From Gemmatimonadales bacterium (GTDB lineage Bacteria > Gemmatimonadota > Gemmatimonadetes > Gemmatimonadales > GWC2-71-9), in NCBI GenBank assembly GCA_050733215.1, contig JBOHSN010000007.1, forward strand, positions 3,034 to 67,033: a stretch of 64,000 bases of DNA, written 5' to 3'. The position numbers were made by a program, and so were the translations under genes. Below, piece by piece: positions 1,475-63,156 of the stretch (within the stretch, counting starts at the first letter, position 1; every line of letters begins with the position of its first letter). The notes under the pieces were generated by a model. It saw nothing but the letters and a program-made list of their open reading frames with translations. It did no database searches and was not told the origin of the DNA.

Positions 1475-1512
1475 GGCGGCTCGCGACCCGGAGCGCGGGC
1501 CGCCTTTCCTTC
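1475..1512 (+). terminator. Possible intrinsic terminator after the peptidase gene
   Basis: Imperfect GC-rich hairpin GGCGGCTCGCG...CGCGGGCCGCC followed by TTTCCTTCCC, 10 nt past the stop codon. Confidence 0.4.
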
Positions 1513-1639
1513 CCTATTCCATCGCGTGCCATCCCGATGCCCCGGCGTGCCATCCCGGACCTACTTCCTCTCCCGCACCGGCGGAGTTGGGGGCGTCGAC
1601 CGATGCTGCCGAAGCCGGCCGACCATCACGTTCTCGTCG

Positions 1640-1865
1640 CGCTGAAACCGGAGGCCACGCAGCGGCCAACGACGAGACCAACAAAAGGCCCACGGTTGTT
1701 CACGTGGGCATGCCCCTCCTGCGTGGCTTGTACCAGCACTCTCCTGATCCAGAGAGGCCATTCTAGCCCGCCGAATTCCGGCAATTTGTCACACTTACGC
1801 GAGTTCGTGTCCCCCGCTGCCGGAGTTTGTTGCTTACATGTTGGACTTTGCTGTGCGTCCGCCGC
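1640..1865 (-). repeat. tRNA-Gln-like repeat unit A: diverged core 1711-1754, hairpin+T-run 1688-1709, conserved arm 1755-~1865
   Basis: Core keeps CTCTGGATCAGGAGAGT and AGGAGGGGCA, but the T arm is degenerate. The low-coordinate flank (hairpin GCCCACG..CGTGGGC + TTTTGTTGG, then GGCCGCTGCGTGGCC) is shared with the copy at 47286-47347. The arm aligns with copies B and E. Confidence 0.7.
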
Positions 1866-1933
1866 TCAAATGCCGAGGTCTGATTGCATGTCAGTGCCCC
1901 GCGGCGATCGTTACCTCTGCGTGCGCCGAGCGC

Positions 1934-2932
1934 CTATTTACGAGTCCAGAGCGTGGCGTGCTGCCCACTCTCCCCCACGATCTCGCCGCGTGGGTTGATG
2001 CCCCAGGCTATGCAGCAGCTGCTGCCGCTCAGCGTACCCAGATCCGTCATGACGCCACTGACCCAGACGAACGGGTGCTGCTGCCCCTCGGTCGTTTCGC
2101 TATACCCCACGACCACCCCCGCGTGGTTGATGCCTGTGGCGATGCTGAAGCTGCCGCCCAGCGTGCCCAGATCGGTCATCACGCCCTTCGACCAAAGAAA
2201 GGCGTGGGACTGCCCTTTGGCTGTCAGGCTCTCGCCCACAACGTCTCCACGGGGGTTGATACCCCAGGCCCTACTGAAGCCGCCGCCTAGCGTGCCCAGA
2301 TCCGTAATGACCCCCTTCTCCCAAACAATGGCATGGGTCTCACCCACTGCCGTCTCGCTGGAGCCTGCGATCTGTCCTGCGGGATTGATGCTCGGTGCTC
2401 CCAGCGCCCCCAGATCGGTCATGACACCTTTCTGCCAGAGAAAGGTGTGTCCCGGGCCAGTCGGCGTCCCGCTAAAGCCCACCACCTGGCCCGCGGGGTT
2501 GATGTCATTTGCTTCACTGGAAGTCCCGCCGAGGGTGCCGAGGTCTATCATGACCCCTTCCGACCAGAGAAAGGCGTGGAGCAGCCCTCCGGCGGTGAGG
2601 CTCTGGCCGACGACGTCTCCCCGGGGGTTAATGCTCCAGGCTTCGCTGTCGCCGCCGCCGAGGGTGCCCAGGTCGATCATGGTCTCCTTCGACCAGAGAA
2701 AGGCGTGCCGCTGCCCGCCCGTGGTCTCGCTCCAGCCCACGATCACCCCAGCAGGGTTGATGCGTCGAGCGAGGCTGGAGCTACCGCCGAGCGTACCCAG
2801 GTCCACCGCGGTATACGCCCCGGCGGCCTTGGCGAGGGTCGGACTGCCGGGCTCGGTCGGGGTTGGCTCGGAGGAGGTGCACGCCAGTAGCGCCAGCGCC
2901 AGGCTGGCGGAGAGTCCAGTCCGTGATCGCAT
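1934..2932 (-). CDS. HAF-family extracellular repeat lipoprotein
   Basis: About seven ~42-aa tandem repeats (HAFLWskGVMtDLGTLGG...A.gINp.G.VVG.S). Lipoprotein-type signal MRSRTGLSASLALALLAC. A TTG at 2992 would add 20 aa. Confidence 0.85.
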   Translation of the reverse strand: MRSRTGLSASLALALLACTSSEPTPTEPGSPTLAKAAGAYTAVDLGTLGGSSSLARRINPAGVIVGWSETTGGQRHAFLWSKETMIDLGTLGGGDSEAWSINPRGDVVGQSLTAGGLLHAFLWSEGVMIDLGTLGGTSSEANDINPAGQVVGFSGTPTGPGHTFLWQKGVMTDLGALGAPSINPAGQIAGSSETAVGETHAIVWEKGVITDLGTLGGGFSRAWGINPRGDVVGESLTAKGQSHAFLWSKGVMTDLGTLGGSFSIATGINHAGVVVGYSETTEGQQHPFVWVSGVMTDLGTLSGSSCCIAWGINPRGEIVGESGQHATLWTRK

Positions 2933-3126
2933 GGGATCCCATTCCTGCCGATCCGCGAGCGGGCTCGGATCAGGCGATGGGAGGAACCCCAAACACGCCG
3001 CCCACGTGCGAGCCCTGAAAGGGGCTGCTGGGCTGCCGGCGTGACGAACCGCGACGATGCAAGGGGCCGCGTTGCATCTGCCGGCCCATCTTCAGTAATA
3101 TGACGACCGGCGTCGCAAATGTGGAT

Positions 3127-3312
3127 GGCGCCGCATCGGATTTGCCGATGCGGCGCTTTCAATTGCCCTCCTGGGCTCGAACCAGGACTCTCCTGATCCA
3201 GAGGGGCCACAGTAAGCAGCTGAATGCCAGCAACTTGCAATCATACACTCGAGCTCTTGTCACCCGCTGCTGGAGTTTTGCTGGTTTCATGCGGACTCTT
3301 GCTGTACCCCAA
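3127..3312 (-). repeat. tRNA-Gln-like repeat unit B: core 3164-3203, arm 3204-~3312, 12-bp perfect hairpin 3127-3156
   Basis: Core matches the consensus with a 1-nt deletion in the acceptor strand. The arm aligns with unit A over ~110 nt (e.g. GTCACCCGCTGCTGGAGTTTTGCTGG vs GTCCCCCGCTGCCGGAGTTTGTTGC). Confidence 0.75.
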
Positions 3313-3685
3313 AACGGCCGCTCGTGGACCAGGGGACAGTCGAGCGGCTCCTGGCCGTCGCCCCCGGGGTGCACGCGTTCCTCGCTGCGACGATCCACAT
3401 CACGGTGACCAGGCGCCGTCGGCGTGGCGCCATTTGCCAGCTCCAACCATAGCGATCTCGATTTCGAGCGGAAGCTAGATCCGCTGGCGGGCGGCGAGCG
3501 ACAAGGCGCGGAAGACCCGCGTGGTTTCGGCGAGCACATCCCGGCATCGGCGAGCAATATCTGTTTCCGCATCCGAGGCAGCAGCGCCGCCGGGGCGAGG
3601 CGGTGACGCCGCACCTCGCGTCGTACTGGCTCACGCGGGCCTACCTTCGCTCCCTCCGAGGTTGCTGTCCAACGTGCAACGCCGG

Positions 3686-4882
3686 TCAGGCGGTATTCTC
3701 CCGCACCACCTCTCCCACAAGCCCCATCGCATCCCGCAGCTGGCGGTCCGACAGGTAAGGTGCAGGACCGAGCCGGAGGACCTCACCGCGGGCATCGGTC
3801 CAGACCCCACGTGCATGGAGGCTCCGCACCAGAGCGGCCGCGACCGGGGATCGGAGCGCGAGGAAACCGCCAACCTCGTCGAGCGGGCAGGCACGGTCGC
3901 GGCTCAGGATCGCGGGGTCGAGATCCAGCGCGTCGAACGTCGAGGCGAGCAGCCCGATTTGATGCTGGCTCACCTCCCGCAGGAGCTGAGGCGTGAGCCC
4001 ACGCTCACGGAAGAAGTCGAACACCCGGGCGGCGCGGTAATGGCTGGTCGGATCGTAGGTAGCGCCGGCGAACCGGTCGCCTCCCTGTCCATAGGCTACT
4101 CGCTCCGCGCGCTGCCGATCGGTCAGGACGGTGAACTCGCTGAACCACCCCGTCACCACCGGCCGAAGGCCAGTGTCCGGCGGGAACCTCAGAAAGCAGT
4201 TTCCCTCTCCCAGCTGGCAGTACTTGTACCCGCCGCCCACGACGAAGGCGTCGCCCAGTCCCTCGTCGGCGAGCGAGAACGGCACGACGTTGAGCGCGTG
4301 ATAGGCATCCACCAGCAGCCGGCTCCCGTGGCGCCGGCAACTCGCCGCCACGTCGGCAAGCCCCCGGGCAATGCGCCCGGTGTCGAAGAAAACGGCTGAG
4401 ACGAGTACCAGGGCCGTGCGATCGTCCACCGCGTGGCTGAGTCGGGTCGCCAGCGATTCGAGCGGAGCCTCGGGAACACGGACTATGGTGAAACCCTCCT
4501 CCTCGAGGCGGTCGAGCTGCCGGCGGATGCTGTGGAATTCGCCGTCGGTAGTGAGCAACCGGGGGCGCGTCTTTAGCGGCAGGGCGGAGAGGAGGCGGAC
4601 CACCAGCTCGTGGGTGTTCGCCCCCAGCGCGACCGAGCCTCCCGCGTCTCCGAGCAGCCTGGCGAATCCCTCGCGGACCTGCTCCGCCTGAGCGAACGCA
4701 TGCTCCCACTTGTCGTCCACGTAGCGCGCCGCGTCCAGCCAAGCTCCCATATGGCCGTCGAAGCCACAGTCCGGCCAGGCCTGGTGGGAGTGCCCGGTGA
4801 GCAGGAGGCGCTCGGATACCCCGAATCGGGAATAGTCGGGCGCGAGGGCGTTGGGGAAGCCGTAGAGGGACCCGGGATGCAT
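3686..4882 (-). CDS. kynU: Kynureninase-like PLP-dependent hydrolase (aminotransferase class V fold)
   Basis: 398-aa ORF with kynureninase-like layout (LTGHSHQAWPD..., GGGYKYCQLGEGNCFL). Lies directly downstream of a tryptophan 2,3-dioxygenase gene. Confidence 0.8.
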   Translation of the reverse strand: MHPGSLYGFPNALAPDYSRFGVSERLLLTGHSHQAWPDCGFDGHMGAWLDAARYVDDKWEHAFAQAEQVREGFARLLGDAGGSVALGANTHELVVRLLSALPLKTRPRLLTTDGEFHSIRRQLDRLEEEGFTIVRVPEAPLESLATRLSHAVDDRTALVLVSAVFFDTGRIARGLADVAASCRRHGSRLLVDAYHALNVVPFSLADEGLGDAFVVGGGYKYCQLGEGNCFLRFPPDTGLRPVVTGWFSEFTVLTDRQRAERVAYGQGGDRFAGATYDPTSHYRAARVFDFFRERGLTPQLLREVSQHQIGLLASTFDALDLDPAILSRDRACPLDEVGGFLALRSPVAAALVRSLHARGVWTDARGEVLRLGPAPYLSDRQLRDAMGLVGEVVRENTA

Positions 4883-4884
4883 AA

Positions 4885-5040
4885 CTATCGGCTATCCGCT
4901 ATCCGCTATCCGCTATTCGGCTATCCGCTATCGGCTATCCGCTATCCGCTCTGGCCGCGGTCATCCCGGGACGGCCGCGGGCACCGAGCGACGGCGGTGA
5001 GAGCGGATAGCGGATAGCCGATAGCGGATAGCGGATAGCC
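4885..5040. repeat. Inverted arrays of a 7-bp tandem repeat (GCTATCC / GGATAGC) forming a ~40-bp-stem hairpin
   Basis: Left array has ~9 units (4885-4951). Right array has ~6 units in inverse orientation (5000-5040). The ~50-nt GC-rich loop contains GGCCGCGG twice. The structure fills the whole kynA-kynU intergenic space. Confidence 0.9.
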
Positions 5041-12858: not shown

Positions 12859-14294
12859 GCCGGGGCCACCAGCCGCCGGCGGCCGTCGGCGGTGCGGGGC
12901 GTATCGTCCCCGTCGAGAACCAGGTGGTCCCAGAGCTTGCAGGTCACCTGCTTGTGCACCTGATCGAGGCCCTCGCAGTAGTTGGTGAAGACACAGCGCC
13001 GCACCTCTTGCCCCAAGCCCAGTCTGAGCTTCCGGAACCAGTCGGGGTCAGCCAGGCTCTGCCGGGCGGACGCGATGATGTCCGCCACGCCGGTCCGGAG
13101 CAACTCCTCGGCCTGCTCGAAGGTCGAGATGCCGCCCGATAGGACCACCGGCGTCCGGCACCCCACGGCGTGCACCGCCTCCCGCACGGCGCGGACGGCC
13201 TCCCGGTTCCGGCCGAACGGTCCTCGTTCATCCGACCGCACGGTCGGCATGCACTCGTAGCCACTGGGCCCCGTGTAGGGATAGCTGGCCCAGCCCACCC
13301 GCGGCTGCTTGGCGTCCTCGAACTTGCCCCCGCGAGAGAGCGAGAGGTAGTCCATCCGGGCCCGCGCAAACTCGGCTCCGAACCAGGCCGCATCCTCCGC
13401 GGTGTTTCCTCCCGGAATGCATTCCTCGGCCAGGAACCGGCATCCCACCACGAATCGCTGGCTCACCGCGCCTCGCACCGCGCGATAGACCTCGAGCGGC
13501 AATTTCACCCGATTCGCCCGGGACCCCCCGTAGCCATCGTCCCGCTGGTTCAGCGCGGAGAGAAACGACGCCATGGTGTAGGCGTGGGCGTAGTGCAGCT
13601 CCACTCCGTCGAACCCCGCCTCTTCGGCCCGCGCCGCCGCTCGAGCGAACAATCCCGGCAGTACCCGTGGCAGCTCCCGAATGTGCGGCAGCCCGGTATC
13701 GGTAACCCGCTCCCGCTCGCCGAATCGCACGCTCTCGAGCTCCCGCTCATCCAGAAACTCGGGCCACGCCTCCTCGGGCAATCGCGCCAGCGCCTCCCGG
13801 ATGGCGTCGTCGCTGCCTGGCAACAGCGCGCGGTGCCGGTCGGTGATACTCAAGAACTCGCGGAAGTATCGCTCCGGCTCCGGCCGGCGGCGGATCCGGA
13901 GGAAATCGATGATCTGGATGAACAGCCGAGTGCGTCCGCCGCTCGACTGACGGACGGTGCGCACCAGCTCCGCGAGGCCGGGGATGAACCGATCGTGCCC
14001 GATCCGGAGCAGCGGACCGCTGGGAATGTCCCGGATTCCGGTCGCCTCGACGACCAGCGCCCCGGGTTGTCCCCGCGCGAAACGCTCGTACCACGCCAGG
14101 ACCTCAGGGGTCACCAGCCCGTCGTCGGTAGCCCGCCAGGGCACCATGGCCGGAACCCAGGTGCGCTCGGTCAGCTCGAGCCGGCCGGAGCGGAGGGGGC
14201 TGAACCAGAGCGATCGGCCCGCCTCTTCCGCCGTGGGAGGGTGCGTCCCCGGGATGGGATGTTTGACGAAGGGGTCAGGGTGCCACATAGCCAC
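12837..14294 (-). CDS. NADH:flavin oxidoreductase (Old Yellow Enzyme family)
   Basis: 485 aa. [25 protein letters not shown] motif. Overlaps the downstream monooxygenase/reductase gene by 22 nt. Codons ~24-48 are duplicated at 19188-19263. Confidence 0.85.
14149..14224. repeat. Direct repeat copy 1 (inside the OYE 5' coding region)
   Basis: 76 nt with 3 mismatches to 19188-19263, followed by ~20 nt of weaker similarity. Confidence 0.9.
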
Positions 14295-19054: not shown

Positions 19055-19690
19055 TCAGACGGGCCGCTCCGACTTCCGAATCCAAACGGGTTGGTCAGGT
19101 TTCCGCCTCCAGGTGCGCAACTGAGCGGCCGTAAGCTCCCGCACTTCTACCAGCGGTTCGGGGTCGCTCGATGCTCTGCGCAGCAAGGCCGGAACCCAGG
19201 TGCGCTCGGTCAGCTCGAGCCGGCCCGAGCGGAGGGGGCTGAACCAGAGCGACCGGGCCGCCTGATCCGGCGGAGGGTTCACCAGGCAGATCCACGCATA
19301 GCTGCCTGCCTCCAGGTACTGTGTCGCGTTTGACTCGCCGTGCGGGTCGGCCACGCCTGGGCCGCCGAGCCGCTTTGCCCACTCCGGCCGTGGACCGACC
19401 GTGCGGAACGCTTCGCTGTACGCCTGGAGGAAGTCGTCCAATGTCCTGCCGCCCTCGAGCTTGATCAGCTGCGCCATGTGGAACTGTTCGCTGTTGTTCA
19501 CCATGCGGAAGGTGGTGAACCCTGCCGGGATCGTGTCAGGTGCCTCGAACGCGTAATCGATGGCGGTCAAGATGACCACGGTCGGGGCGGCGGCCGCGTT
19601 GGGGTGAGGCGCCTCATTACCCGCCGTGCAGGCGGCGACCAATGCGACGATCGCGATCAGCGGGGCAGGGGTGGTGGAGTGTGCAGACAT
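19055..19690 (-). CDS. Secreted lipoprotein (cupredoxin-like hypothetical) with a chimeric C-terminus
   Basis: Signal/lipobox LIAIVALVAAC. After ...AWICLVNPPPD the ORF runs into the duplicated OYE segment and unrelated sequence, so the native 3' end appears to be lost. Confidence 0.5.
   Translation of the reverse strand: MSAHSTTPAPLIAIVALVAACTAGNEAPHPNAAAAPTVVILTAIDYAFEAPDTIPAGFTTFRMVNNSEQFHMAQLIKLEGGRTLDDFLQAYSEAFRTVGPRPEWAKRLGGPGVADPHGESNATQYLEAGSYAWICLVNPPPDQAARSLWFSPLRSGRLELTERTWVPALLRRASSDPEPLVEVRELTAAQLRTWRRKPDQPVWIRKSERPV
19188..19263. repeat. Direct repeat copy 2 (displaced fragment of the OYE 5' region)
   Basis: 76 nt with 3 mismatches to 14149-14224. Encodes [24 protein letters not shown], as in the OYE N-terminus. 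Confidence 0.9.
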
Positions 19691-26347: not shown

Positions 26348-27877
26348 ATGACTGTCGAGGGTCAGGCGCAACTCAACATCGCCGACTTCTTTCTCGATGC
26401 CCGGGTGCGCGAAGGCCGGGGCGACCGGACCGCGCTCATTACCGATGCCGGACGGTTGAGCTACCGAGAGGTTCAGGCGCTGGCCAACCGCTATGCCAAC
26501 CTGCTCAGTTCGGCGGGAGTGTCTCCGGAACAGCGCGTCATCATCGCCCTGCCAGACGGGCCCGACTACGTGGCGGCGCTGTTCGGCATCCTGAAGATCG
26601 GCGCCGTCGTAGTGATGGTCAACCCGGAGCTCAAGCCCGACGCGATCGAGTACTTCTTCGAGTACAGCCGCGCCGTAGTGGCGCTGGTAGCCGCGGAGCG
26701 GGCCGACGCATTTCGCGCCGCGGCCGGCCGGGGTGCACATGCGCCCGCGTTGCTGGTCGTGGGCCTCGGCGATTGGAAATCGCGCCTCGATGTGGCACCG
26801 GAGACCTGGCGGAACTTTCCCACGCACCCTGACGACGCCGCCATCTGGCTCTTCTCCGGCGGCACCACCGGCCGCCCCAAGGCCGCGGTGCAGCCGCATC
26901 GCTCGTTCGTCAACACGGCGCAGTGCTACGCCGGCCAAGTCCTCTGCTACACCGAGGACGACGTGACGCTCTCGGTTCCTAAACTCTATTTCGGCTACGC
27001 GACCGGCTCCAATCTCCTCTTTCCCTTCGCCGCCGGCGCCGCCAGCGTGCTGTTCGACGACCGCTGCACCGCAGAAGTCATCTTCAGCCGAATCGCGCGA
27101 TGCCGGCCGACCATCCTGATCACCGTCCCCACGATGATCAACCAGATGGTGAGTCATCCGGAGGCCGGCCGCCAGGACCTCTCCTCCTTACGACTGGCGA
27201 CTTCCGCGGGAGAGGGGTTGCCCGAAGAGCTGCACGCCAGGTGGGACCGGACTTTCGGGGTTCCGCTCCTCGACGGCCTCGGCACCGCGGAGATGTGGCA
27301 CATCTTCCTCTCCAATCGACTGGGCCGGGTTCGCCGTGGGACGCTGGGCGAGGTGGTGCCCGGCTTCGAGATCAGGGTGGCGGACGAGGAGGGTCGGGAG
27401 GTGCCTGACGGGACGATCGGGCACCTCTGGGTGCGGGGCGGGTCGCGGGCCCTGGGCTATTGGCAACAGCTGGACAAGAGCCAGACCTGCTTCCGGGGTG
27501 AGTGGGTGGTTACGGGCGACCTGGTCCGGCGTGACGCCGACGGCTACTACGGCTATGGCGGCCGAGCCGACGAGCTGCTCAAGGTGTCGGGCAGATGGCT
27601 CTCCCCCACCGAGGTGGAAGGCTGCCTGCTGCTCCACCCGGCGGTGTCGCAGGTGGCGGTGGTGGGCGTGGCCGACGCGAATGGCCTGGTCAAGCCGTAT
27701 GCCTACGTCGTCCCTCGCGAGCGCCGCGACGGCCTGGCGGAGGAGCTCAAGGCCTTCGTGCGCGATCGGCTGGAGCCGTACAAGCATCCCCGCGAGGTGA
27801 TCTTCCTCGACGCCCTCCCGACCACGCACCTGGGGAAGGTGGACCGGGGCCAGCTCAGGGCGGGACCGGGGCACTGA
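26348..27877 (+). CDS. Aryl-CoA ligase of the benzoate/2-aminobenzoate-CoA ligase family
   Basis: ATG at 26348. AMP-binding motifs LFSGGTTGRPKA and GDLVRRDADGYYGYGGRADELLKVSG. The upstream part of track ORF 25367.. is antisense to the creatininase gene. Confidence 0.85.
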   Translation: MTVEGQAQLNIADFFLDARVREGRGDRTALITDAGRLSYREVQALANRYANLLSSAGVSPEQRVIIALPDGPDYVAALFGILKIGAVVVMVNPELKPDAIEYFFEYSRAVVALVAAERADAFRAAAGRGAHAPALLVVGLGDWKSRLDVAPETWRNFPTHPDDAAIWLFSGGTTGRPKAAVQPHRSFVNTAQCYAGQVLCYTEDDVTLSVPKLYFGYATGSNLLFPFAAGAASVLFDDRCTAEVIFSRIARCRPTILITVPTMINQMVSHPEAGRQDLSSLRLATSAGEGLPEELHARWDRTFGVPLLDGLGTAEMWHIFLSNRLGRVRRGTLGEVVPGFEIRVADEEGREVPDGTIGHLWVRGGSRALGYWQQLDKSQTCFRGEWVVTGDLVRRDADGYYGYGGRADELLKVSGRWLSPTEVEGCLLLHPAVSQVAVVGVADANGLVKPYAYVVPRERRDGLAEELKAFVRDRLEPYKHPREVIFLDALPTTHLGKVDRGQLRAGPGH

Positions 27878-30106: not shown

Positions 30107-30160
30107 CCGCGAGCCGGGGCGCGGGCTTGCGCTCCCGGCTTCGATCAGGCCGAGGATTCG

Positions 30161-30290
30161 CCACGGCCTGGCGGAGGAGCTCAAGGCCTTTGTGCGCGGC
30201 CGGTTGGAGCCGTACAAGCATCCGCGCGAGGTGTATTCGTCGATTCCCTCCCGACCACGCATCTGGGAAAGGTGGACCGGGGCCAGCTCG
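30161..30290 (+). pseudogene. Remnant of an aryl-CoA ligase 3' end
   Basis: About 130 nt, ~80% identical by eye to 27728-27857 (GLAEELKAFVR.RLEPYKHPREV...GKVDRGQL), with a 1-nt deletion that breaks the frame. Confidence 0.8.
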
Positions 30291-30566
30291 GGGCGCCTTC
30301 GAGTGGCTGAAATCGACTGCCTCGCGCGCCCTCCGTGCTGACATATCCGCAGCCCTCGAGCGTGCCAAACCGACCACGCAGTCACACCTAGCTGGCGCTG
30401 CCCGGCCGAACCCGATCCCACCGCCTTGACGACCCCCGTACCGAGCGGTACGGTATCGCCGACTCCACAGCACCTCTCAGAGAACAAGGGCAAACCCAGT
30501 GAGCCGGTTATTGCGATGCCGGCCGTATGTATTCGCAAGCTTCCCTGACGAAGAAGGAGGTAGTCT

Positions 30567-31617: not shown

Positions 31618-31648
31618 ATGATCCCGAATTAGCCCCTCACCCCAGCAT

Positions 31649-31689
31649 TGCCCCTCCTGGGCTCGAACCAGGACTCTCCTGATCCAGAG
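31649..31689 (-). repeat. tRNA-Gln-like repeat C (core only)
   Basis: Exact 41-nt consensus core, 20 nt downstream of the stop of the cupin gene at 31710. Confidence 0.85.
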
Positions 31690-31709: not shown

Positions 31710-32192
31710 CTACGCTATTGGGCGATGGATCTCGAGGCCGTGGCGCTTTCCCGCGGCTGCCAGTGTGTCGAAGTCGGGCAGTGGTCCCGGGCTGGGGAGC
31801 GTGCGTGCCGTGGCCTTCTCTCCTACCTCGTTGAAGAAGTCCTCGATGCCGGGACGGTCGTAGATCACCAGAGCCCGGGCCGGGAGCGTGGTCGGGTTAT
31901 CCATCCATTCGAGCGTGCCTTCGGGGAAATAGAGGAAGTCCCCCGGCGCCGCCTCGAGCACCTGGTCATCCACGTGGTACCGAATCGTGCCCTCGAGAAC
32001 ATAGACCGCTTCGCCGCAGTCGTGGCGATGGGGTGGCGCTCCCGGCTTACCAGGTGGATATGTCATCTCGACGACGGTCAAATGGCCTCCGGTATCCTGC
32101 CCGGTGGCCTTGATCTCGAAGAGCGAGCCGAGTACCCAAAGCGGCTTCCCCTCGTTCTTCCGGGCGACGGTCGCGTGTAGGACGGTGGTCAT
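31710..32192 (-). CDS. Cupin-domain protein
   Basis: 160 aa. PPHRHDCGEAVYVLEGT cupin motif. Confidence 0.75.
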   Translation of the reverse strand: MTTVLHATVARKNEGKPLWVLGSLFEIKATGQDTGGHLTVVEMTYPPGKPGAPPHRHDCGEAVYVLEGTIRYHVDDQVLEAAPGDFLYFPEGTLEWMDNPTTLPARALVIYDRPGIEDFFNEVGEKATARTLPSPGPLPDFDTLAAAGKRHGLEIHRPIA

Positions 32193-47168: not shown

Positions 47169-47229
47169 AGCTGGCCCACGGACGACGCGCCGCTCCCGAG
47201 CACGCCAAGAAGCGTGTCGCAGATAGACG

Positions 47230-47259
47230 AAGCCCGGCACGACCTAAGTCGCCGGGCTT
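47230..47259. terminator. Hairpin terminator after the crotonase gene
   Basis: AAGCCCGGC-(12 nt)-GCCGGGCTT followed by GATTG, 60 nt past the stop. Confidence 0.5.
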
Positions 47260-47262
47260 GAT

Positions 47263-47455
47263 TGCCCCCTCCTGGGCTCGATCCGAAGGCCACGCAGCGG
47301 CCGAAGGACGAGACCAAACAAAACGCCCACGGTTGTTCACCGTGGGCATTGCCCCTCCTGGGCTCGAACCAGGACTCTCCTGATCCAGAGTCGTACCGCT
47401 GGGGTAGCGGTTCCGGCCAAGTTGCCCGGAAACGGTCACTTGCCGAGCATCGGTG
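47263..47455 (-). repeat. Composite tRNA-like locus D: T-loop-type fragment (47263-47302), hairpin+T-run (47325-47347), full core D2 (47350-47390), arm (47391-~47455)
   Basis: D2 is the exact 41-nt core. The segment 47286-47347 is homologous to 1646-1709. Confidence 0.8.
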
Positions 47456-47620
47456 CCCGCTTCCCTGCCCTAAAATGTCCGGTTATGCCCGGAGAGGGGC
47501 GCTGAGTGGCGTTGCGCCAGAATTGTCTAGGTCGCTGGCGCGTCTATGGACGCTGTTTGCCGCTGGTGGGGATCGTTACCAGGAGCGTTACTACCCCTTG
47601 CGCTCGAGTCGCCACGCGCG

Positions 47621-57013: not shown

Positions 57014-57338
57014 GTATTCGAGACGGCGCAAGAGCGAGCGCCGGCCAAGCTGCGCGCCGAGGGACTGAAGTGGGTTCTGGGCAGTATGCCGATCGCAGTG
57101 AAGCGGGAAGACGATGCCTCGACAGCTTCCTTGGACAGTAGCCACGGCCCTTGAACGCATGAACCTGAACCGCCGTCAGCTCATTACCAGCACGCCGATG
57201 AGGCCGCGATGCTGAAAGTGATGGAGTCGCCGGTCCGGCTGGTGAGCCATCGCGCGAACGGCGCACTGGAGAAACGGTAGCAGTGGGCGCAGAAATGAGC
57301 AGGCCCGACACCACCGAAGTAGCGTTGGGCCTTCGAGT

Positions 57339-57445
57339 TGCCCCTCCTGGGCTCGACCAGGACTCTCCTGATCCAGAGGGGCGGCTGCAATCACGTGAAC
57401 TCCACCAACTTGCAGCCATTCACGCGAGTTGGCGGAGACGCCGGC
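57339..57445 (-). repeat. tRNA-Gln-like repeat E: core 57339-57378 + arm
   Basis: Core with a 1-nt deletion in the T loop. The arm shares CAACTTGCA..CA.TCACGCGAG with units A and B. Lies ~110 nt downstream of the stop of the SDR gene at 57489. Confidence 0.8.
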
Positions 57446-57488: not shown

Positions 57489-58382
57489 CTAGTGTTCTTG
57501 GTCTGTCGCGGTCGTGAGGGAGGTCACTGGTCGGACGGTCTGCCCGGGGGGCTGTACGCGGAGCCGTTGCAGCGGTGCCCGCGTGAGCTCATCGCTCAGC
57601 GTCCGCAACCGCCGTCTCGCGGCTGGATCGTCCGCCTGCTGGAGAGGTCGAGCGGGGCGGTCACCGTCGTAGTAGCGGCCGGTAATCCCGCTGACCAGAC
57701 TCTCCCTCAACAGCCCTACCACCGCGGCGGCGCCGGCGCTCGCCGACCCCCGAGGGCTCACCTCCGACTCACGCACCATCTTGGTGTCGAGAAAGGTTCC
57801 CGGGTGGAGAGCGTTGCACGCGATCTCGGGAAATTCTTCCGCGAGATCGAAGGTGAGCATGATGAGCGCCAGCTTGCTCTGGCGGTACGCCCGCCACCCA
57901 TCGTACGCCCCCGTCAGCATCGGATCCCTGAAGTCGATCGCCGCCTGTCCCGCGGAGGCGACATTGATGATCGCGCGGCTGGGGCGTCCATACCCGAGGA
58001 GCTGGCGTGTCAGCAGAAACGGCGCGAGATAATTGACCGCGAACCGCAGCTCGTATCCGTCCCAGCTCAGTTCGCGTCTGCCGGTGGGCGGGCCCGCTCC
58101 AATGCCGGCATTGTTGATCAGCACGTCCAGCCTGGGAGCTCGTTCCGCCACCTCGCGCGCCAGGCCTGCCGTCTGCTCCAGCGACGCCAGATCGGCCACG
58201 AATCCCTCCACCTCCCCGCCGCCGTCGCGCAGCTCGCGGACCACCTGGCCGACCTTCGCCGGGTTGCGCCCGTGGACCAGCACGCCGGCCCCTTCCCCGG
58301 TCAAGAGGCGGGCGGTGGCCAGCCCGATGCCGTCGGTCGCTCCGGTCACCAGGACCACGAGGTTTCGCAGCACGGACGTCAT
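57489..58382 (-). CDS. Short-chain dehydrogenase/reductase
   Basis: 297 aa. VTGATDGIG, NNAG, YRQSKLA. Confidence 0.85.
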   Translation of the reverse strand: MTSVLRNLVVLVTGATDGIGLATARLLTGEGAGVLVHGRNPAKVGQVVRELRDGGGEVEGFVADLASLEQTAGLAREVAERAPRLDVLINNAGIGAGPPTGRRELSWDGYELRFAVNYLAPFLLTRQLLGYGRPSRAIINVASAGQAAIDFRDPMLTGAYDGWRAYRQSKLALIMLTFDLAEEFPEIACNALHPGTFLDTKMVRESEVSPRGSASAGAAAVVGLLRESLVSGITGRYYDGDRPARPLQQADDPAARRRLRTLSDELTRAPLQRLRVQPPGQTVRPVTSLTTATDQEH

Positions 58383-61259: not shown

Positions 61260-62735
61260 CTATGGATTAGTCCGATTTGGTTTGCGGCGAGGGCGCATGC
61301 TGGCGGCATACAGGTCGCGAAGGGTCCAGAGGACGACGGGGTGACCTGAGCTGAGCGCGTTGGCCTCGAACCCCGACACAAACCCACCAGCTGCCACATA
61401 GAGCAGTGGAGCCTCGGGCCGCAGGGCTGCGTGTGCCCATTTCACGCCGGCAGCCGCTAATCGTTCGAGCGTCGTGAGGTGGTCACGGTGGACATCCAGC
61501 GGAATGGGACGCCGATTCCACTTAATGGCTCCGGTGAGCACGCCGCCGTCACTCAGCACGCTCGCGATGTCGATCTCCAGCGAACGACCCTCACGATCGG
61601 CGCCCTCCCAGCGACTCCACTCGCTGACCATTGGAAGACGATACCGGTCGCGCAGACGAGAGTACGCCTGCTCTACCATGCGCTCGAAGACGTGGCCCAT
61701 GTAGGTATCCAGACGCGGTAGCACCTGCTCGGTCCACACGGCCTTCGGGCTGTAACGAGCCAGTTCGGCCTCGAATGGGGCGACGAAGGTTGTGTGGAAC
61801 ATCTGGGCAGGGTCAGCCAGCCGATAGCGGTAGGGCTCTTTGGGCTTGGCGCCCAAATTCCGATGCGCCTCCACGTACCCAAGAGCGATGAGTCGATCAA
61901 CCTTTTGCCGTAAGGCGGTGTCGGTCGCCATCCCAGCCCGCTGGCCGATCTCGTTGAGCTCGGTCCGGCCATCCGCAATCGCCCTGAGCACGGCGTGGTA
62001 GCTCGCCACATCGCGCAATCCTTGCTCCTGTAGGAGCGCGGTCTCGACTTGGGCGCGGACCTCGCCACGCGGGTGCAGGAAGGTGTCGGCCACATTCTGG
62101 GCGAGCGACCGGCCGGGGCGCACGGCCGCGAGGTACCGCGGAATGCCGCCGAATACCCCGTAGGCAGCGGCGCGATCGCGGAGCGAGCGGAAGCTGGCCA
62201 TCTCGCCGGCGTGGAAGTAATCGAAGGGGCGGAGTTCGGTCCGCCAGTGGAACCGGCCATAGAGGGGAGCGGCACCCGCGTCCAATGCCTCCATTGTGCG
62301 GGTGGCCGAACCGGAGAGGGCCAGCACCAGAGGCCGGGCCGGGCGACGCTGCTCCCAGACGGCGTTGAGCTCCGAGGCGACACCAGCCAAGTCCTGCTCC
62401 GACTCGCCGAGGTACTGGAACTCGTCCAGGACGACGGCGAGCGGGGCCGGCGCTTGCAGTTCGAGCAACAGCCGGAACGCCGTCCGCCAGGTAGGATAGT
62501 CCTCCGGGTTCAGCGCCTGGTCGCTCCACCGGGCCACCTCCGCCACGAGGGCCAGTCGGTTCTGGGCCGGCGTGGTATTCGCCGCTGTGAAGTAGAACGT
62601 ATTGGCAGTCGGCCAGACGTTGGTCAGGAGGTAGGTCTTCCCTACGCGCCGCCGGCCGTAGAGCAGCACAAGGCGTGGCTCTCCGGCTTCAAGAAATGCC
62701 CCGAGTTCTGCCCGTTCCCGATCCCGATCGATCAT
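61260..62735 (-). CDS. AAA-type ATPase with C-terminal DUF234-like domain (archaeal-ATPase family)
   Basis: Start taken at MIDRDRERAEL (track ORF starts at 62768). Walker A GRRRVGKT and Walker B VVLDEFQ. The central region looks winged-helix-like. Confidence 0.75.
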   Translation of the reverse strand: MIDRDRERAELGAFLEAGEPRLVLLYGRRRVGKTYLLTNVWPTANTFYFTAANTTPAQNRLALVAEVARWSDQALNPEDYPTWRTAFRLLLELQAPAPLAVVLDEFQYLGESEQDLAGVASELNAVWEQRRPARPLVLALSGSATRTMEALDAGAAPLYGRFHWRTELRPFDYFHAGEMASFRSLRDRAAAYGVFGGIPRYLAAVRPGRSLAQNVADTFLHPRGEVRAQVETALLQEQGLRDVASYHAVLRAIADGRTELNEIGQRAGMATDTALRQKVDRLIALGYVEAHRNLGAKPKEPYRYRLADPAQMFHTTFVAPFEAELARYSPKAVWTEQVLPRLDTYMGHVFERMVEQAYSRLRDRYRLPMVSEWSRWEGADREGRSLEIDIASVLSDGGVLTGAIKWNRRPIPLDVHRDHLTTLERLAAAGVKWAHAALRPEAPLLYVAAGGFVSGFEANALSSGHPVVLWTLRDLYAASMRPRRKPNRTNP

Positions 62736-62765
62736 GAGGCCTGCCATTACAAGTATGGTTGAATA

Positions 62766-62793
62766 CAAGTATAATTGTATACAATCGTACTTG
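62766..62793. promoter_or_regulatory. AT-rich near-palindrome upstream of the ATPase gene
   Basis: CAAGTATAATTGTA|TACAATCGTACTTG (12/14 arm match) plus direct repeat TACAAGTAT at 62748 and 62764. Strikingly AT-rich for this window. Confidence 0.5.
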
Positions 62794-63129
62794 CAATGCC
62801 AGGCCGTCTACCTGGCGCGGGCCCGCCGAATCGGAGTAGGCTGCCGCGAGCGCTAGCGGACAGCCGTCTCGCCCACGCGTTTAGACGCGCGTGGGCGACG
62901 GAGCGGAAGGATCTCCCCTTGAAGGAGTCGCCGCGGCCGGTGGGTGGCGCGACACCACCACGCTGCTCCGTTATCCGCAACCCGATCCCCACACGATGCG
63001 GGCGGTCGTTGATTTCGAGACTCCCGTGCCGAAGTCCCATCGGGTTGTGAGTAACTCACTCAGTTACTGACTCACCCCTCGCAAATAGGCGAAGGCCGTC
63101 AGCCGGATAATCGGCTGCCGCCCTTGAAA

Positions 63130-63156
63130 TGCCCCTCCTGGGCTCGATCCGGAGGC
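63130..63156 (-). repeat. tRNA-like repeat F (T-loop-to-3'-end type)
   Basis: TGCCCCTCCTGGGCTCGA matches the core. It continues as TCCGGAGG like the fragment at 47263-47290, then diverges. Confidence 0.65.

What the first reader, a model, noticed from the sequence alone, without database searches (positions are those of the whole stretch)
3204..3312. Conserved ~70-110 nt arm next to four tRNA-like cores, with a covarying small hairpin; four cores sit just 3' of minus-strand stop codons
Units A (1755-~1865), B (3204-~3312), E (57379-~57445) and partly D2 (47391-~47455) share sequence beyond the tRNA-derived core. The plus-strand consensus is ..CCAGAG-N20-25-..GC-AAYTTG-..CA..AC.CGAG...
Inside it is a 4-bp/5-nt hairpin whose stem changes by paired substitutions:
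- B: GCTG-AATGC-CAGC (3219-3231);
- A: GCCG-AATTC-CGGC (1770-1782);
- E: GTG-AACTC-CAC (57395-57405).
Four cores lie closely downstream of minus-strand genes. The distance from stop codon to core is ~180 nt for HAF, ~480 nt for kynU, 20 nt for the cupin at 31710 and ~110 nt for the SDR at 57489. A and D are followed by a hairpin plus T-run.
Two readings fit: shared attP-arm sequence of related integrating elements, or a transcribed tRNA-like 3'-UTR element acting as a processing or stability signal.
Basis: partly seen in the sequence, partly recalled or inferred. Interest (0 to 1): 0.65.

Follow-up and report, generated by a model that had tools for sequence, protein, structure and literature searches.

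The report
Integration scars at a tRNA-Gln hotspot
The "tRNA-like cores with a shared arm" are leftover 3' halves of a glutamine tRNA gene, each joined to the conserved end of a mobile DNA island that once inserted there, so this is a known kind of integration scar and not a new structured RNA.

Summary
The shared sequence is real. The cores are the last 42 nt of tRNA-Gln(CUG), from the anticodon loop to the discriminator base, read on the minus strand. The window holds five of them plus two shorter ones, all in one orientation.

The arm beside cores A, B and E (type 1) and beside D2 (type 2) recurs next to the same core in more than 117 loci, almost all from Gemmatimonadales metagenome-assembled genomes (MAGs). 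These copies usually lie in arrays that end at an intact tRNA-Gln gene.

An intact relative (L128) shows the full layout. In order it has a displaced core, the arm, cargo genes, an excisionase-like gene, a 420-aa tyrosine integrase, a second arm with the same 11-nt repeats, a hairpin and the intact tRNA-Gln gene. The arm is therefore the integrase-distal attP arm (P').

The arm is built from phased repeats. The hexamer TGCYGG recurs every 10-12 bp, and the motifs ACTCACTCA or GAAACNGTAGCA also occur in the integrase-proximal arm. The window keeps three integrase fragments, at 3309-3653, 57185-57247 and 62832-63055.

A longer complementarity does pass the shuffle test, but the same T/C change also occurs together in direct repeats, which cannot pair. 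Closeness to minus-strand stop codons is true in this window but is not a family trait.

Verdict: a new member of a known kind, of modest interest.

The parts
1688..1709 (-). Terminator-like hairpin just 3' (tRNA sense) of core A. It is the same module as the one before D2.
   Evidence: The left flank of A matches the D1-D2 spacer.
1711..1754 (-). Core A, a decayed displaced 3' half of tRNA-Gln(CUG).
   Evidence: It is 71% identical to the reference core.
1755..1878 (.). Arm A, a type-1 P' arm. It holds inverted CCGGCA at 1778-1783, CAATTTG at 1782-1788, and TGCYGG-type hexamers at 1818, 1839, 1849 and 1871.
   Evidence: It matches the family consensus at 36 of 50 and 44 of 52 positions in the first two blocks.
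3127..3156 (.). Hairpin left of core B. A GCAAATG motif before it resembles the proximal motif of the family-1 P arm.
3163..3203 (-). Core B, a displaced 3' half of tRNA-Gln(CUG) with a 1-nt deletion.
3204..3308 (.). Arm B (the finding), a type-1 P' arm cut after about 105 nt. It holds inverted CCAGCA at 3227-3232, CAACTTG at 3231-3237, and TGCTGG hexamers at 3268, 3279 and 3300.
3309..3653 (+). Tyrosine-integrase pseudogene fragment covering residues about 193-319 of a 393-394-aa Int. It is frameshifted and carries a stop codon.
   Evidence: PF00589 at E 2.7e-4. BLASTP to P0200 gives 39% identity, E 2e-16. tblastn confirms the extent.
31648..31689 (-). Core C, a perfect 42-nt core with no recognisable arm.
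47219..47259 (.). GCAGATAGACG motif plus hairpin, resembling the proximal part of a family-1 P arm, before short core D1.
   Evidence: Compare the P arm of L129.
47262..47281 (-). Short core D1, running from the tRNA 3' end to the T-loop and followed by TCCGAAGGC.
47326..47346 (-). Terminator hairpin 3' (tRNA sense) of core D2.
   Evidence: The minus strand reads the hairpin followed by CGTTTTGTTTGG.
47349..47390 (-). Core D2, a perfect 42-nt core.
47391..47495 (.). Arm D2, a type-2 P' arm. It holds CAAGTTG at 47418-47424 and TGCCCG hexamers at 47423, 47454 and 47486. It is cut just before the distal GAAAC repeats.
57185..57247 (+). C-terminal integrase remnant reading ..YQHADEAAMLKVMESP..
   Evidence: tblastn.
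57268..57332 (.). Family-2 P arm, made of GGAGAAACGGTAGCA..GCAGAAATGAGC repeats followed by a hairpin at 57301-57332.
   Evidence: The same layout is seen in L118 and L105.
57338..57378 (-). Core E, with a 1-nt deletion in the T-loop.
57379..57430 (.). Arm E, a type-1 P' arm cut after about 50 nt.
   Evidence: It matches the consensus at 40 of 50 positions, then similarity is lost.
62832..63055 (+). C-terminal integrase pseudogene fragment covering residues about 318-391. It includes the HxxR motif and the LLRY tyrosine, and it is frameshifted.
   Evidence: It is 66% identical to P0200 residues 344-378, E 1e-14.
63047..63124 (.). Family-1 P arm reading GTGAGTAACTCACTCAGTTACTGACTCACCCCTCGCAAATAGG, followed by a hairpin.
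   Evidence: It matches the P arm that follows the full-length Int in L129.
63130..63147 (-). Short core F, running from the tRNA 3' end to the T-loop and followed by TCCGGAGGC.

Best explanation
Each unit is the distal junction of a genomic island that integrated into the tRNA-Gln(CUG) gene through a tyrosine integrase.

The 42-nt core is the chromosomal 3' half of the tRNA. It was displaced when the island supplied its own copy of that segment. The 100-150 nt next to the core is the island's integrase-distal attP arm (P').

The arm is a scaffold of short repeats spaced about one DNA helical turn apart. The same repeats occur in the integrase-proximal arm (P).

Repeated integration at the regenerated tRNA, or at older cores, pushes earlier islands outward. 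This leaves a one-directional array of core-plus-arm junctions. In this window the islands have since lost most of their integrase genes and parts of their arms.

**Shown here**
- The identity of the core.
- The family-wide arm and its repeat anatomy.
- The intact layout in relatives.
- The integrase fragments in the window.
- Breaks of gene order at the cores.

**Inferred**
- That the integrase N-terminal domain, or an excisionase-like protein, binds the repeats.
- That strand exchange occurs in the anticodon-loop segment.
- That integration happened repeatedly at this site.
For: **Core identity**
- The core equals the 3' 42 nt of tRNA-Gln(ctg) genes called by ARAGORN in related loci.
- Identity stops exactly at the anticodon loop.

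**Distribution**
- A scan for core + 25-29 nt + CAANTTG hit more than 117 loci, almost all from Gemmatimonadales MAGs (metagenome-assembled genomes) and several per contig.
- In arrays all units share one orientation, with the intact tRNA at the end predicted by the integration model.

**Intact relatives**
- The island in L128 reads, in order: displaced core, type-2-like arm ending in GAAACTACGCCAGAAACTACACC, a gene with toxin-antitoxin-type Pfam domains (Gp49, HTH_37), an RHS-repeat protein gene, an HTH_17 gene, Int of 420 aa, AGAAACTACACGGAAACTACACG, a hairpin, and tRNA-Gln.
- L129 carries a full Int of 394 aa. It is followed by three copies of ACTCAC[TA]CA, then GCAGATAGG, a hairpin and tRNA-Gln.
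- The type-1 arm carries TTTACTCACTCAAATG.

**Repeat anatomy**
- In the type-1 arm, TGCYGG hexamers sit at arm positions 66, 76, 88, 98, 120 and 130, with one inverted copy at 25.
- The 11-mer motif has 7 matches, against 0.28 in shuffles.
- Type-2 arms have TGCCCG at 34, 65, 87 and 97.

**Integrase remnants**
- In other loci they always lie 70-140 nt upstream of a core and in the unit's orientation.
- The three window remnants are documented.

**Gene order breaks at the core**
- Of 28 unit pairs with the same cargo (up to 99.7% identity between species-representative MAGs), 24 have unrelated left neighbours.
- Of 19 pairs with the same left neighbour, 14 have unrelated cargo.
Against: - The window holds no intact tRNA-Gln and no intact integrase.
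- No circular form or empty site was seen. The one joint found in the source metagenome is a cross-match to the paralogous D2 locus.
- Most units in other genomes lack any integrase trace. Only 10 of 91 core-to-core intervals have one, and only 42 of 174 cores have a recognisable P-arm motif upstream. Plain decay of complete islands is therefore an incomplete account.
- An 11-bp complementarity inside the arm beats all 500 shuffles.
- Arm sequences are present in contigs from soil RNA libraries.
Confidence: 0.9

Rival explanations
1. A minus-strand RNA, in the same sense as the tRNA, runs from the arm into the tRNA-derived T-arm and acceptor strand. It would act as a tRNA-like 3'-UTR element, for example an RNase P, RNase Z or CCA-adding substrate that sets the 3' ends of the upstream minus-strand genes.
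For: - In type-1 arms the first bases after the core (GGGGCC) complement the acceptor 3' strand. The minus strand can therefore draw a 7-bp acceptor-like stem around the T-arm.
- Variants at these bases are mostly U-G on that strand.
- Cores A and D2 are followed by minus-strand terminators.
- Four window cores lie 21-483 nt downstream of minus-strand stop codons.
- RNA-library contigs contain the arm.
Against:
- The partner strand of the acceptor-like stem never varies, so pairing cannot be tested.
- Type-2 arms lack this complement.
- The gene right of the arm is on the + strand in 32 units and on the minus strand in 15.
- ARAGORN and Rfam find nothing, even at E up to 1.
- No promoter-like site was found.
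- The terminators are the hairpins that follow the real tRNA-Gln gene in intact loci.
Confidence: 0.03
2. The arm is a structured leader on the + strand, either RNA or folded single-stranded DNA, that controls the gene downstream of it. It would fold through the 11-bp pairing GAAUUCCAGCA / UGCUGGAGUUU around an inner hairpin.
For: - The pairing holds in 90.2% of cells. Eight of 11 pairs show double changes, and none of 500 shuffles reached the observed value on any of the five measures.
- G-T cells (136) outnumber A-C cells (33) on the + strand.
- Cargo genes usually start 200-300 nt downstream on the + strand.
Against: - The two arms of the helix are an inverted and a direct copy of a motif that occurs at least six times.
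- The T/C state of that motif changes together in direct repeats, which cannot pair: R1-R1b p 1e-4, R1-R2 p 3.5e-5, R0-R0b p 3e-6.
- The G-T excess comes from three positions that are G-T in the consensus. Derived changes show no strand bias.
- RNAalifold on all 114 copies gives -3.2 kcal/mol and no covarying pair.
- The downstream genes are unrelated to one another: kinases, a permease, an amidase, a sulfatase and an integrase.
Confidence: 0.05
3. The similarity arose from local segmental duplication of one tRNA-flanking segment within this genome, with no site-specific recombination involved.
For: - The left flank of A repeats the D1-D2 spacer.
- All copies in the window share one orientation.
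Against: - The same arms occur in more than 117 loci across many species, with different neighbours on each side.
- Identity ends exactly at the anticodon loop.
- Integrase fragments and arm-type repeats accompany the cores.
Confidence: 0.02

Closest known systems
Genomic islands integrated in tRNA/tmRNA genes by tyrosine integrases (the Islander concept, PMC4383910). My own recollection, not checked here: Williams 2002 classed such sites by position within the tRNA gene, including an anticodon-loop class.
   Same: - The island restores the tRNA gene.
- A displaced 3' fragment marks the far end of the island.
- The identity block runs from the anticodon loop to the tRNA 3' end.
- The integrase gene lies next to the intact tRNA.
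   Different: - This family is specific to tRNA-Gln(CUG) in Gemmatimonadales.
- Its P' arm is unusually well conserved across species.
- Core-to-core distances are short: median 2.4 kb within the 8-kb loci sampled.
- Most units have no integrase.
Tycheposons and tRNA-seeded islands of Prochlorococcus (bioRxiv 10.1101/2020.12.28.424599)
   Same: - Successive integrations at one tRNA push older elements into the island.
- Islands hold partial tRNAs and fragmented integrases.
   Different: - The host phylum is different.
- No replication or packaging genes typical of tycheposons (helicase or primase modules) were seen here.
- Units are much smaller.
attP arms with arm-type sites, as in phage lambda, HP1 and P4-like integrases (my own knowledge, not tested here)
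   Same: - Short direct repeats lie on both sides of the core, at tens to about 150 bp from it.
- The integrase has an extra N-terminal region of about 200 aa. The full-length forms are 390-430 aa.
   Different: - Binding was not tested.
- The motifs (TGCYGG, ACTCACTCA, GAAACNGTAGCA) and their six-fold phasing of about 10.5 bp are specific to this family.
Integron gene cassettes and attC sites
   Same: - One-directional arrays of short units.
- Units often carry a single gene and are shuffled as modules.
   Different: - The recombination site is a tRNA-derived core plus arm, not a folded imperfect palindrome.
- No attC-like structural covariation was found.
- No platform integrase with attI and a cassette promoter was seen.
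- Genes are not all in one orientation.
tRNA-like structures at RNA 3' ends, such as plant-virus TLS and mascRNA
   Same: A T-arm plus acceptor-like stem can be drawn for type-1 units on the minus strand.
   Different: - There is no covariation support.
- Type-2 units lack the stem.
- No tRNA or Rfam hit was found.
- The position relative to genes is not conserved.

Membership tests
tRNA-gene-integrated genomic island (att junction) | The fragment is identical to the 3' part of a real tRNA gene of the lineage. | tested here: met
   Cores C and D2 are 42 of 42 identical to the 3' end of tRNA-Gln(ctg) in L118. In L128 the displaced copy carries the same T-loop variant as the resident tRNA.
tRNA-gene-integrated genomic island (att junction) | The identity block starts at a defined point in the tRNA (anticodon loop or T-loop) and runs to the tRNA 3' end. 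| tested here: met
   Similarity among all copies ends at CCAGAG, which is the anticodon loop, and at the discriminator base. The short cores end in the T-loop.
tRNA-gene-integrated genomic island (att junction) | An intact tRNA gene lies at the other end of the island or array. | tested here: not met
   The 64-kb window holds no tRNA. The feature is met in related loci L011, L022, L048, L087, L115, L118, L128 and L129.
tRNA-gene-integrated genomic island (att junction) | A tyrosine integrase gene lies inside the island, next to the tRNA-proximal end. | tested here: inconclusive
   The window holds only fragments, at 3309-3653, 57185-57247 and 62832-63055. Full-length Int of 420 and 394 aa lies next to the tRNA in L128 and L129.
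tRNA-gene-integrated genomic island (att junction) | The same arm-type repeats occur on both sides of the core. | tested here: met
   GAAACTACAC occurs twice in the P arm, and two copies of the related motif (GAAACTACGCC, GAAACTACACC) lie in the P' arm of L128. ACTCAC[TA]CA occurs in family-1 P arms and in the type-1 arm.
tRNA-gene-integrated genomic island (att junction) | Excision or integration is observed as a circular junction, an empty site, or presence/absence between strains. | tested here: inconclusive
   No true joint was found in the source metagenome contigs. Indirect support comes from gene order breaking at cores between genomes.
Structured RNA element (tRNA-like 3'-UTR or leader) | Base pairs are supported by covariation beyond what relatedness gives. 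| tested here: not met
The long pairing passes the shuffles, but the same change occurs together in direct repeats.
Structured RNA element (tRNA-like 3'-UTR or leader) | The element is recognised as a tRNA, tmRNA or a curated RNA family. | tested here: not met
   ARAGORN found 0 genes. Rfam gave no hit at gathering scores. At E up to 1 only two weak sRNA matches appeared, far below their gathering scores; the better one (DsrA) covers the hairpin left of core B and the start of the core.
Structured RNA element (tRNA-like 3'-UTR or leader) | The element is transcribed with defined ends and on a defined strand. | tested here: inconclusive
   Only unstranded contigs from soil RNA libraries were available. 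The arm is present in them, but they give no ends, and DNA carry-over is possible.
Integron cassette array | An attC-type folded imperfect palindrome closes each cassette. | tested here: not met
   Units are bounded by the tRNA-derived core plus a repeat-built arm. No conserved-structure, variable-sequence site was found.
Integron cassette array | An IntI-type integrase with adjacent attI and cassette promoter. | not tested
   The integrases match PF00589 and have a separate N-terminal region of about 200 aa. The IntI-specific insertion was not examined.

The most novel reading that the evidence does not exclude
The arrays work as a cassette platform anchored at a tRNA gene. Short units, mostly of one gene and without an integrase, would be bounded by the 42-nt tRNA-Gln core and the conserved P' arm. 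Integrases of 390-430 aa encoded elsewhere in the array or genome would cut them out and re-insert them in trans. This would shuffle Ser/Thr kinases, permeases and other genes within and between Gemmatimonadales species, in a way that resembles integrons but uses a different kind of site. The evidence that does not exclude it: a median core-to-core distance of 2.4 kb, only 10 of 91 intervals with an integrase trace, cargo up to 99.7% identical between species with unrelated neighbours, and arms far better kept than the integrase genes.
Probability: 0.25. Interest if true: 0.6.

Novelty: new member of a known kind. Interest (0 to 1): 0.3.

Why it matters
It removes a candidate new RNA from the list and replaces it with a concrete map. 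The first 63 kb of this window form a tRNA-Gln-seeded island graveyard, so the genes between the cores (HAF-repeat protein, kynureninase-like, cupin, TetR, SDR and others) are likely horizontally acquired cargo.

It also defines a recognisable signature for finding such islands in Gemmatimonadales genomes, a soil phylum with few cultured members. The signature is the core, then 27 nt, then CAANTTG, then phased TGCYGG repeats.

If the small integrase-less units prove to be mobile in trans, the family would be a useful natural example of cassette shuffling at a tRNA site.

Tried and rejected
- **tRNA and Rfam scans.** ARAGORN and Rfam on the window and on unit B found nothing relevant.
- **Integrase search with XerC.** This was misleading, because the copies are fragments. 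Motif-based tblastn then found them.
- **A short, catalytic-domain-only integrase.** All 62 word-indexed homologues were 225 aa or shorter, which suggested an Int of about 200 aa. The exhaustive HMMER search then showed full-length relatives of 390-430 aa, so I dropped the idea.
- **The arm as coding sequence.** I considered that it might encode the Int N-terminus. The three 17-mers fall in different frames, and 1-nt indels are common.
- **Reverse-transcription primer-binding site.** The + strand has no complement of CCA before the core.
- **Group II intron inserted after a terminator.** The Rfam scan of the window gave no hit to any RNA family, group II introns included.
- **Promoter in the arm.** The sigma-70 scan found none in 1500-3700.
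- **RNA evidence.** Only unstranded contigs of mixed origin were available.
- **Excision polymorphism.** The single joint in the source metagenome, 1703 to 3166, is the paralogous D2 locus.

Full report

Yes for the shared sequence, no for the covarying hairpin.

The 16-mer CTCTCCTGATCCAGAG occurs five times exactly in the window, always on the + strand. With up to 3 mismatches there are 6 matches, against 0.84 expected, and no shuffle reached 6. Repeat finding and alignment extend this to a core of about 42 nt. The cores lie at:
- 1711-1754 (A, decayed)
- 3163-3203 (B)
- 31648-31689 (C)
- 47349-47390 (D2)
- 57338-57378 (E)

Two shorter copies stop in the T-loop, at 47262-47281 (D1) and 63130-63147 (F).

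Beyond the core, A and B agree at 69 of 104 positions and B and E at 38 of 56. D2 shares only CAANTTG, which sits exactly 27 nt from the core in all four.

So are the hairpin-plus-T-run modules after A and D.

**2. What the core is.**

Read on the minus strand, the core has these parts in order:
- an anticodon loop, CUCUGGA
- the 3' strand of the anticodon stem
- a variable loop
- a T-arm
- an acceptor 3' strand
- a discriminator A

ARAGORN finds no tRNA in the window. In related loci it calls tRNA-Gln(ctg), usually beside tRNA-Ala(cgc). The 3' 42 nt of that gene are identical to cores C and D2. The cores are therefore fragments of the tRNA-Gln(CUG) gene that begin exactly in the anticodon loop.

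**3. What the arm is.**

Almost all are from Gemmatimonadales metagenome-assembled genomes (MAGs), often several per contig.

Two arm types recur, each conserved for about 140-150 nt:
- Type 1, as in window arms A, B and E.
- Type 2, as in D2.

Units lie in one-directional arrays. Where an intact tRNA-Gln is present, it sits at the high-coordinate end, antisense to the units. This is the arrangement predicted if each unit is the far junction of an element integrated into that tRNA.

The clearest case is an intact island in L128. It reads, in order:
- a hairpin
- the displaced core
- a type-2-like arm ending in GAAACTACGCCAGAAACTACACC
- a gene with toxin-antitoxin-type Pfam domains (Gp49, HTH_37)
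- an RHS-repeat protein gene
- an HTH_17 (excisionase-like) gene
- a 420-aa tyrosine integrase
- AGAAACTACACGGAAACTACACG
- a hairpin
- the intact tRNA-Gln, then tRNA-Ala

L129 shows the family-1 counterpart. A 394-aa integrase is followed by three copies of ACTCAC[TA]CA, then GCAGATAGG, a hairpin and the intact tRNA-Gln. The type-1 arm carries TTTACTCACTCAAATG.

In both families, then, the same short motif sits on both sides of the core. This is the classic layout of arm-type sites in an attP.

**4. Anatomy of the arm.**

The type-1 arm is built from one motif, TGCYGGAVTTY:
- Hexamers TGCYGG lie at arm positions 66, 76, 88, 98, 120 and 130, with an inverted copy at 25.
- The spacings are 10, 12, 10, 22 and 10 nt, about one helical turn or a multiple of it.
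- The 11-mer has 7 matches, against 0.28 in shuffles.

Type-2 arms have TGCCCG at 34, 65, 87 and 97. In arm B the hexamers are at 3268, 3279 and 3300, and the inverted copy is at 3227.

**5. The window as a whole.**

Three integrase fragments survive, all on the + strand and each in the expected place:
- 3309-3653, right after arm B. It covers residues about 193-319 of a 393-aa Int (39% identity, E 2e-16). It also gives a weak PF00589 hit.
- 57185-57247. It is followed by GAAACGGTAGCA-type repeats and a hairpin before core E.
- 62832-63055, covering residues about 318-391 (66% identity, E 1e-14). It is followed by an ACTCAC-repeat arm and a hairpin before core F.

Arm B is cut after about 105 nt and arm E after about 50 nt. 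D2 ends just before its distal repeats, and C has no arm. The locus is thus an old array of decayed islands. The intact tRNA is not in the window.

**6. Tests of the RNA readings.**

Of 500 shuffles, 66 do as well. The outer pair is C-C in 56 copies and the third pair is C-A in 57. The apparent paired substitutions in A, B and E were a small-sample effect.

*RNAalifold.* On all 114 copies (+ strand) it finds almost no structure: -3.2 kcal/mol and no covarying pair. On 63 clean copies it draws an 11-bp long-range pairing, GAATTCCAGCA with TGCTGGAGTTT, on either strand.

*The long pairing.* It is 90.2% paired, and no shuffle reached the observed value on any of the five measures. I do not read it as an RNA helix, for two reasons:
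- Its two sides are an inverted and a direct copy of the repeated motif. The T/C state of that motif changes together in direct repeats as well, and those cannot pair: R0-R0b p 3e-6, R1-R1b 1e-4, R1-R2 3.5e-5, R2-R3 8e-4.
- The excess of G-T over A-C cells (136 against 33) comes from three positions that are G-T in the consensus. Derived changes show no strand bias.

*A minus-strand acceptor-like stem.* In type-1 units GGGGCC lies opposite the acceptor 3' strand, so such a stem can be drawn. Its partner never varies, however, and type-2 arms lack it.

*Other checks.*
- The gene to the right of the arm is on the + strand in 32 units, on the minus strand in 15, and unclear in 89. A position 3' of minus-strand genes is therefore not a family trait.
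- Contigs from soil RNA libraries contain arm sequence but give no strand or ends.

**7. Evidence that cores are recombination junctions.**

Among 131 units, 28 pairs share the start of their cargo at 80% identity or more over at least 400 nt. Identity reaches 99.7% between different species representatives. In 24 of these pairs the 400 nt to the left of the core are unrelated.

Conversely, 19 pairs share the left neighbour, and in 14 of them the cargo to the right is unrelated.

The cargo of unit A, the minus-strand HAF-repeat gene, is 82% identical to the cargo of a unit in L007. Gene order therefore breaks at the core.

**8. What remains open.**

- Within the 8-kb loci the median core-to-core distance is 2.4 kb. 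Only 10 of 91 intervals hold any integrase trace, and only 3 hold a full catalytic domain.
- None of the loci from the genome scan holds an uninterrupted full-length integrase; only L087 and L097 show any N-terminal match.
- Only 42 of 174 cores have a recognisable P-arm motif upstream.
- The P' arms and cores are much better kept than the integrase genes.

This fits either recent spread of non-autonomous units moved in trans, or selection on the arm for another role such as expression of the adjacent gene. I could not separate these two.

**9. Comparison with known systems and verdict.**

The features match tRNA-gene-integrated islands as defined for the Islander database (PMC4383910). They also match the picture of tRNA-seeded islands with partial tRNAs and fragmented integrases described for tycheposons (bioRxiv 10.1101/2020.12.28.424599). 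Two literature searches found nothing on such elements in Gemmatimonadota.

I file this as a new member of a known kind. The second reading and the covariation claim are not supported.

Noticed in passing
window 3309-3653 and 62832-63055: The two integrase fragments are complementary. One covers residues about 193-319 and the other about 318-391 of a 393-394-aa Int. Both are on the + strand and they lie 59 kb apart. The codons at the junction differ, so there is no target duplication. This may be one gene split by a large insertion or rearrangement, or a coincidence of roughly 1-2%.
   Followed up: partly
loci L005, L036, L040, L053, L082 and others; window 47262-47290 and 63130-63156: Many cores in other genomes carry one to four tandem inserts of about 23 nt inside the T-loop part of the core. 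Each insert is AGCCGMAGGC plus a small hairpin whose stem varies in a paired way. The window's short cores D1 and F end at the same T-loop point and continue with TCCGRAGGC. Their origin is unexplained. They could mark a second integrase class that uses the T-loop, or a minisatellite.
   Followed up: partly
window 3309 onward; L118 5809-6519: An integrase lacking its first 177-193 residues or so sits directly behind a P' arm in two independent cases, window B and L118-L121. Several database proteins of 224-225 aa start in the same region. This may be a recurrent deletion or a real short form.
   Followed up: partly
window 4888-4959: A tandem heptamer repeat (GCTATCC) shows contig depth of about 1500-4600x in the source cave metagenome, against about 30x around it. 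This points to a very high-copy simple repeat in that community.
   Followed up: no
It is the cargo of unit A, and a related gene follows a type-1 arm in L007.
   Followed up: partly
window 14141-14233 / 19180-19272, and 27725-27862 / 30159-30295: Two further repeat pairs, each 90-92% identical, are unrelated to the cores. I did not annotate either pair.
   Followed up: no
L128 410-1778: A group II intron reverse transcriptase (RVT_1 plus GIIM) lies just outside the displaced-core end of the intact tRNA-Gln island.
   Followed up: no
window 61260-62768 (-): An ATPase_2/DUF234 gene lies just upstream of the integrase fragment before core F. An AT-rich palindromic stretch lies at 62740-62800.
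   Followed up: no
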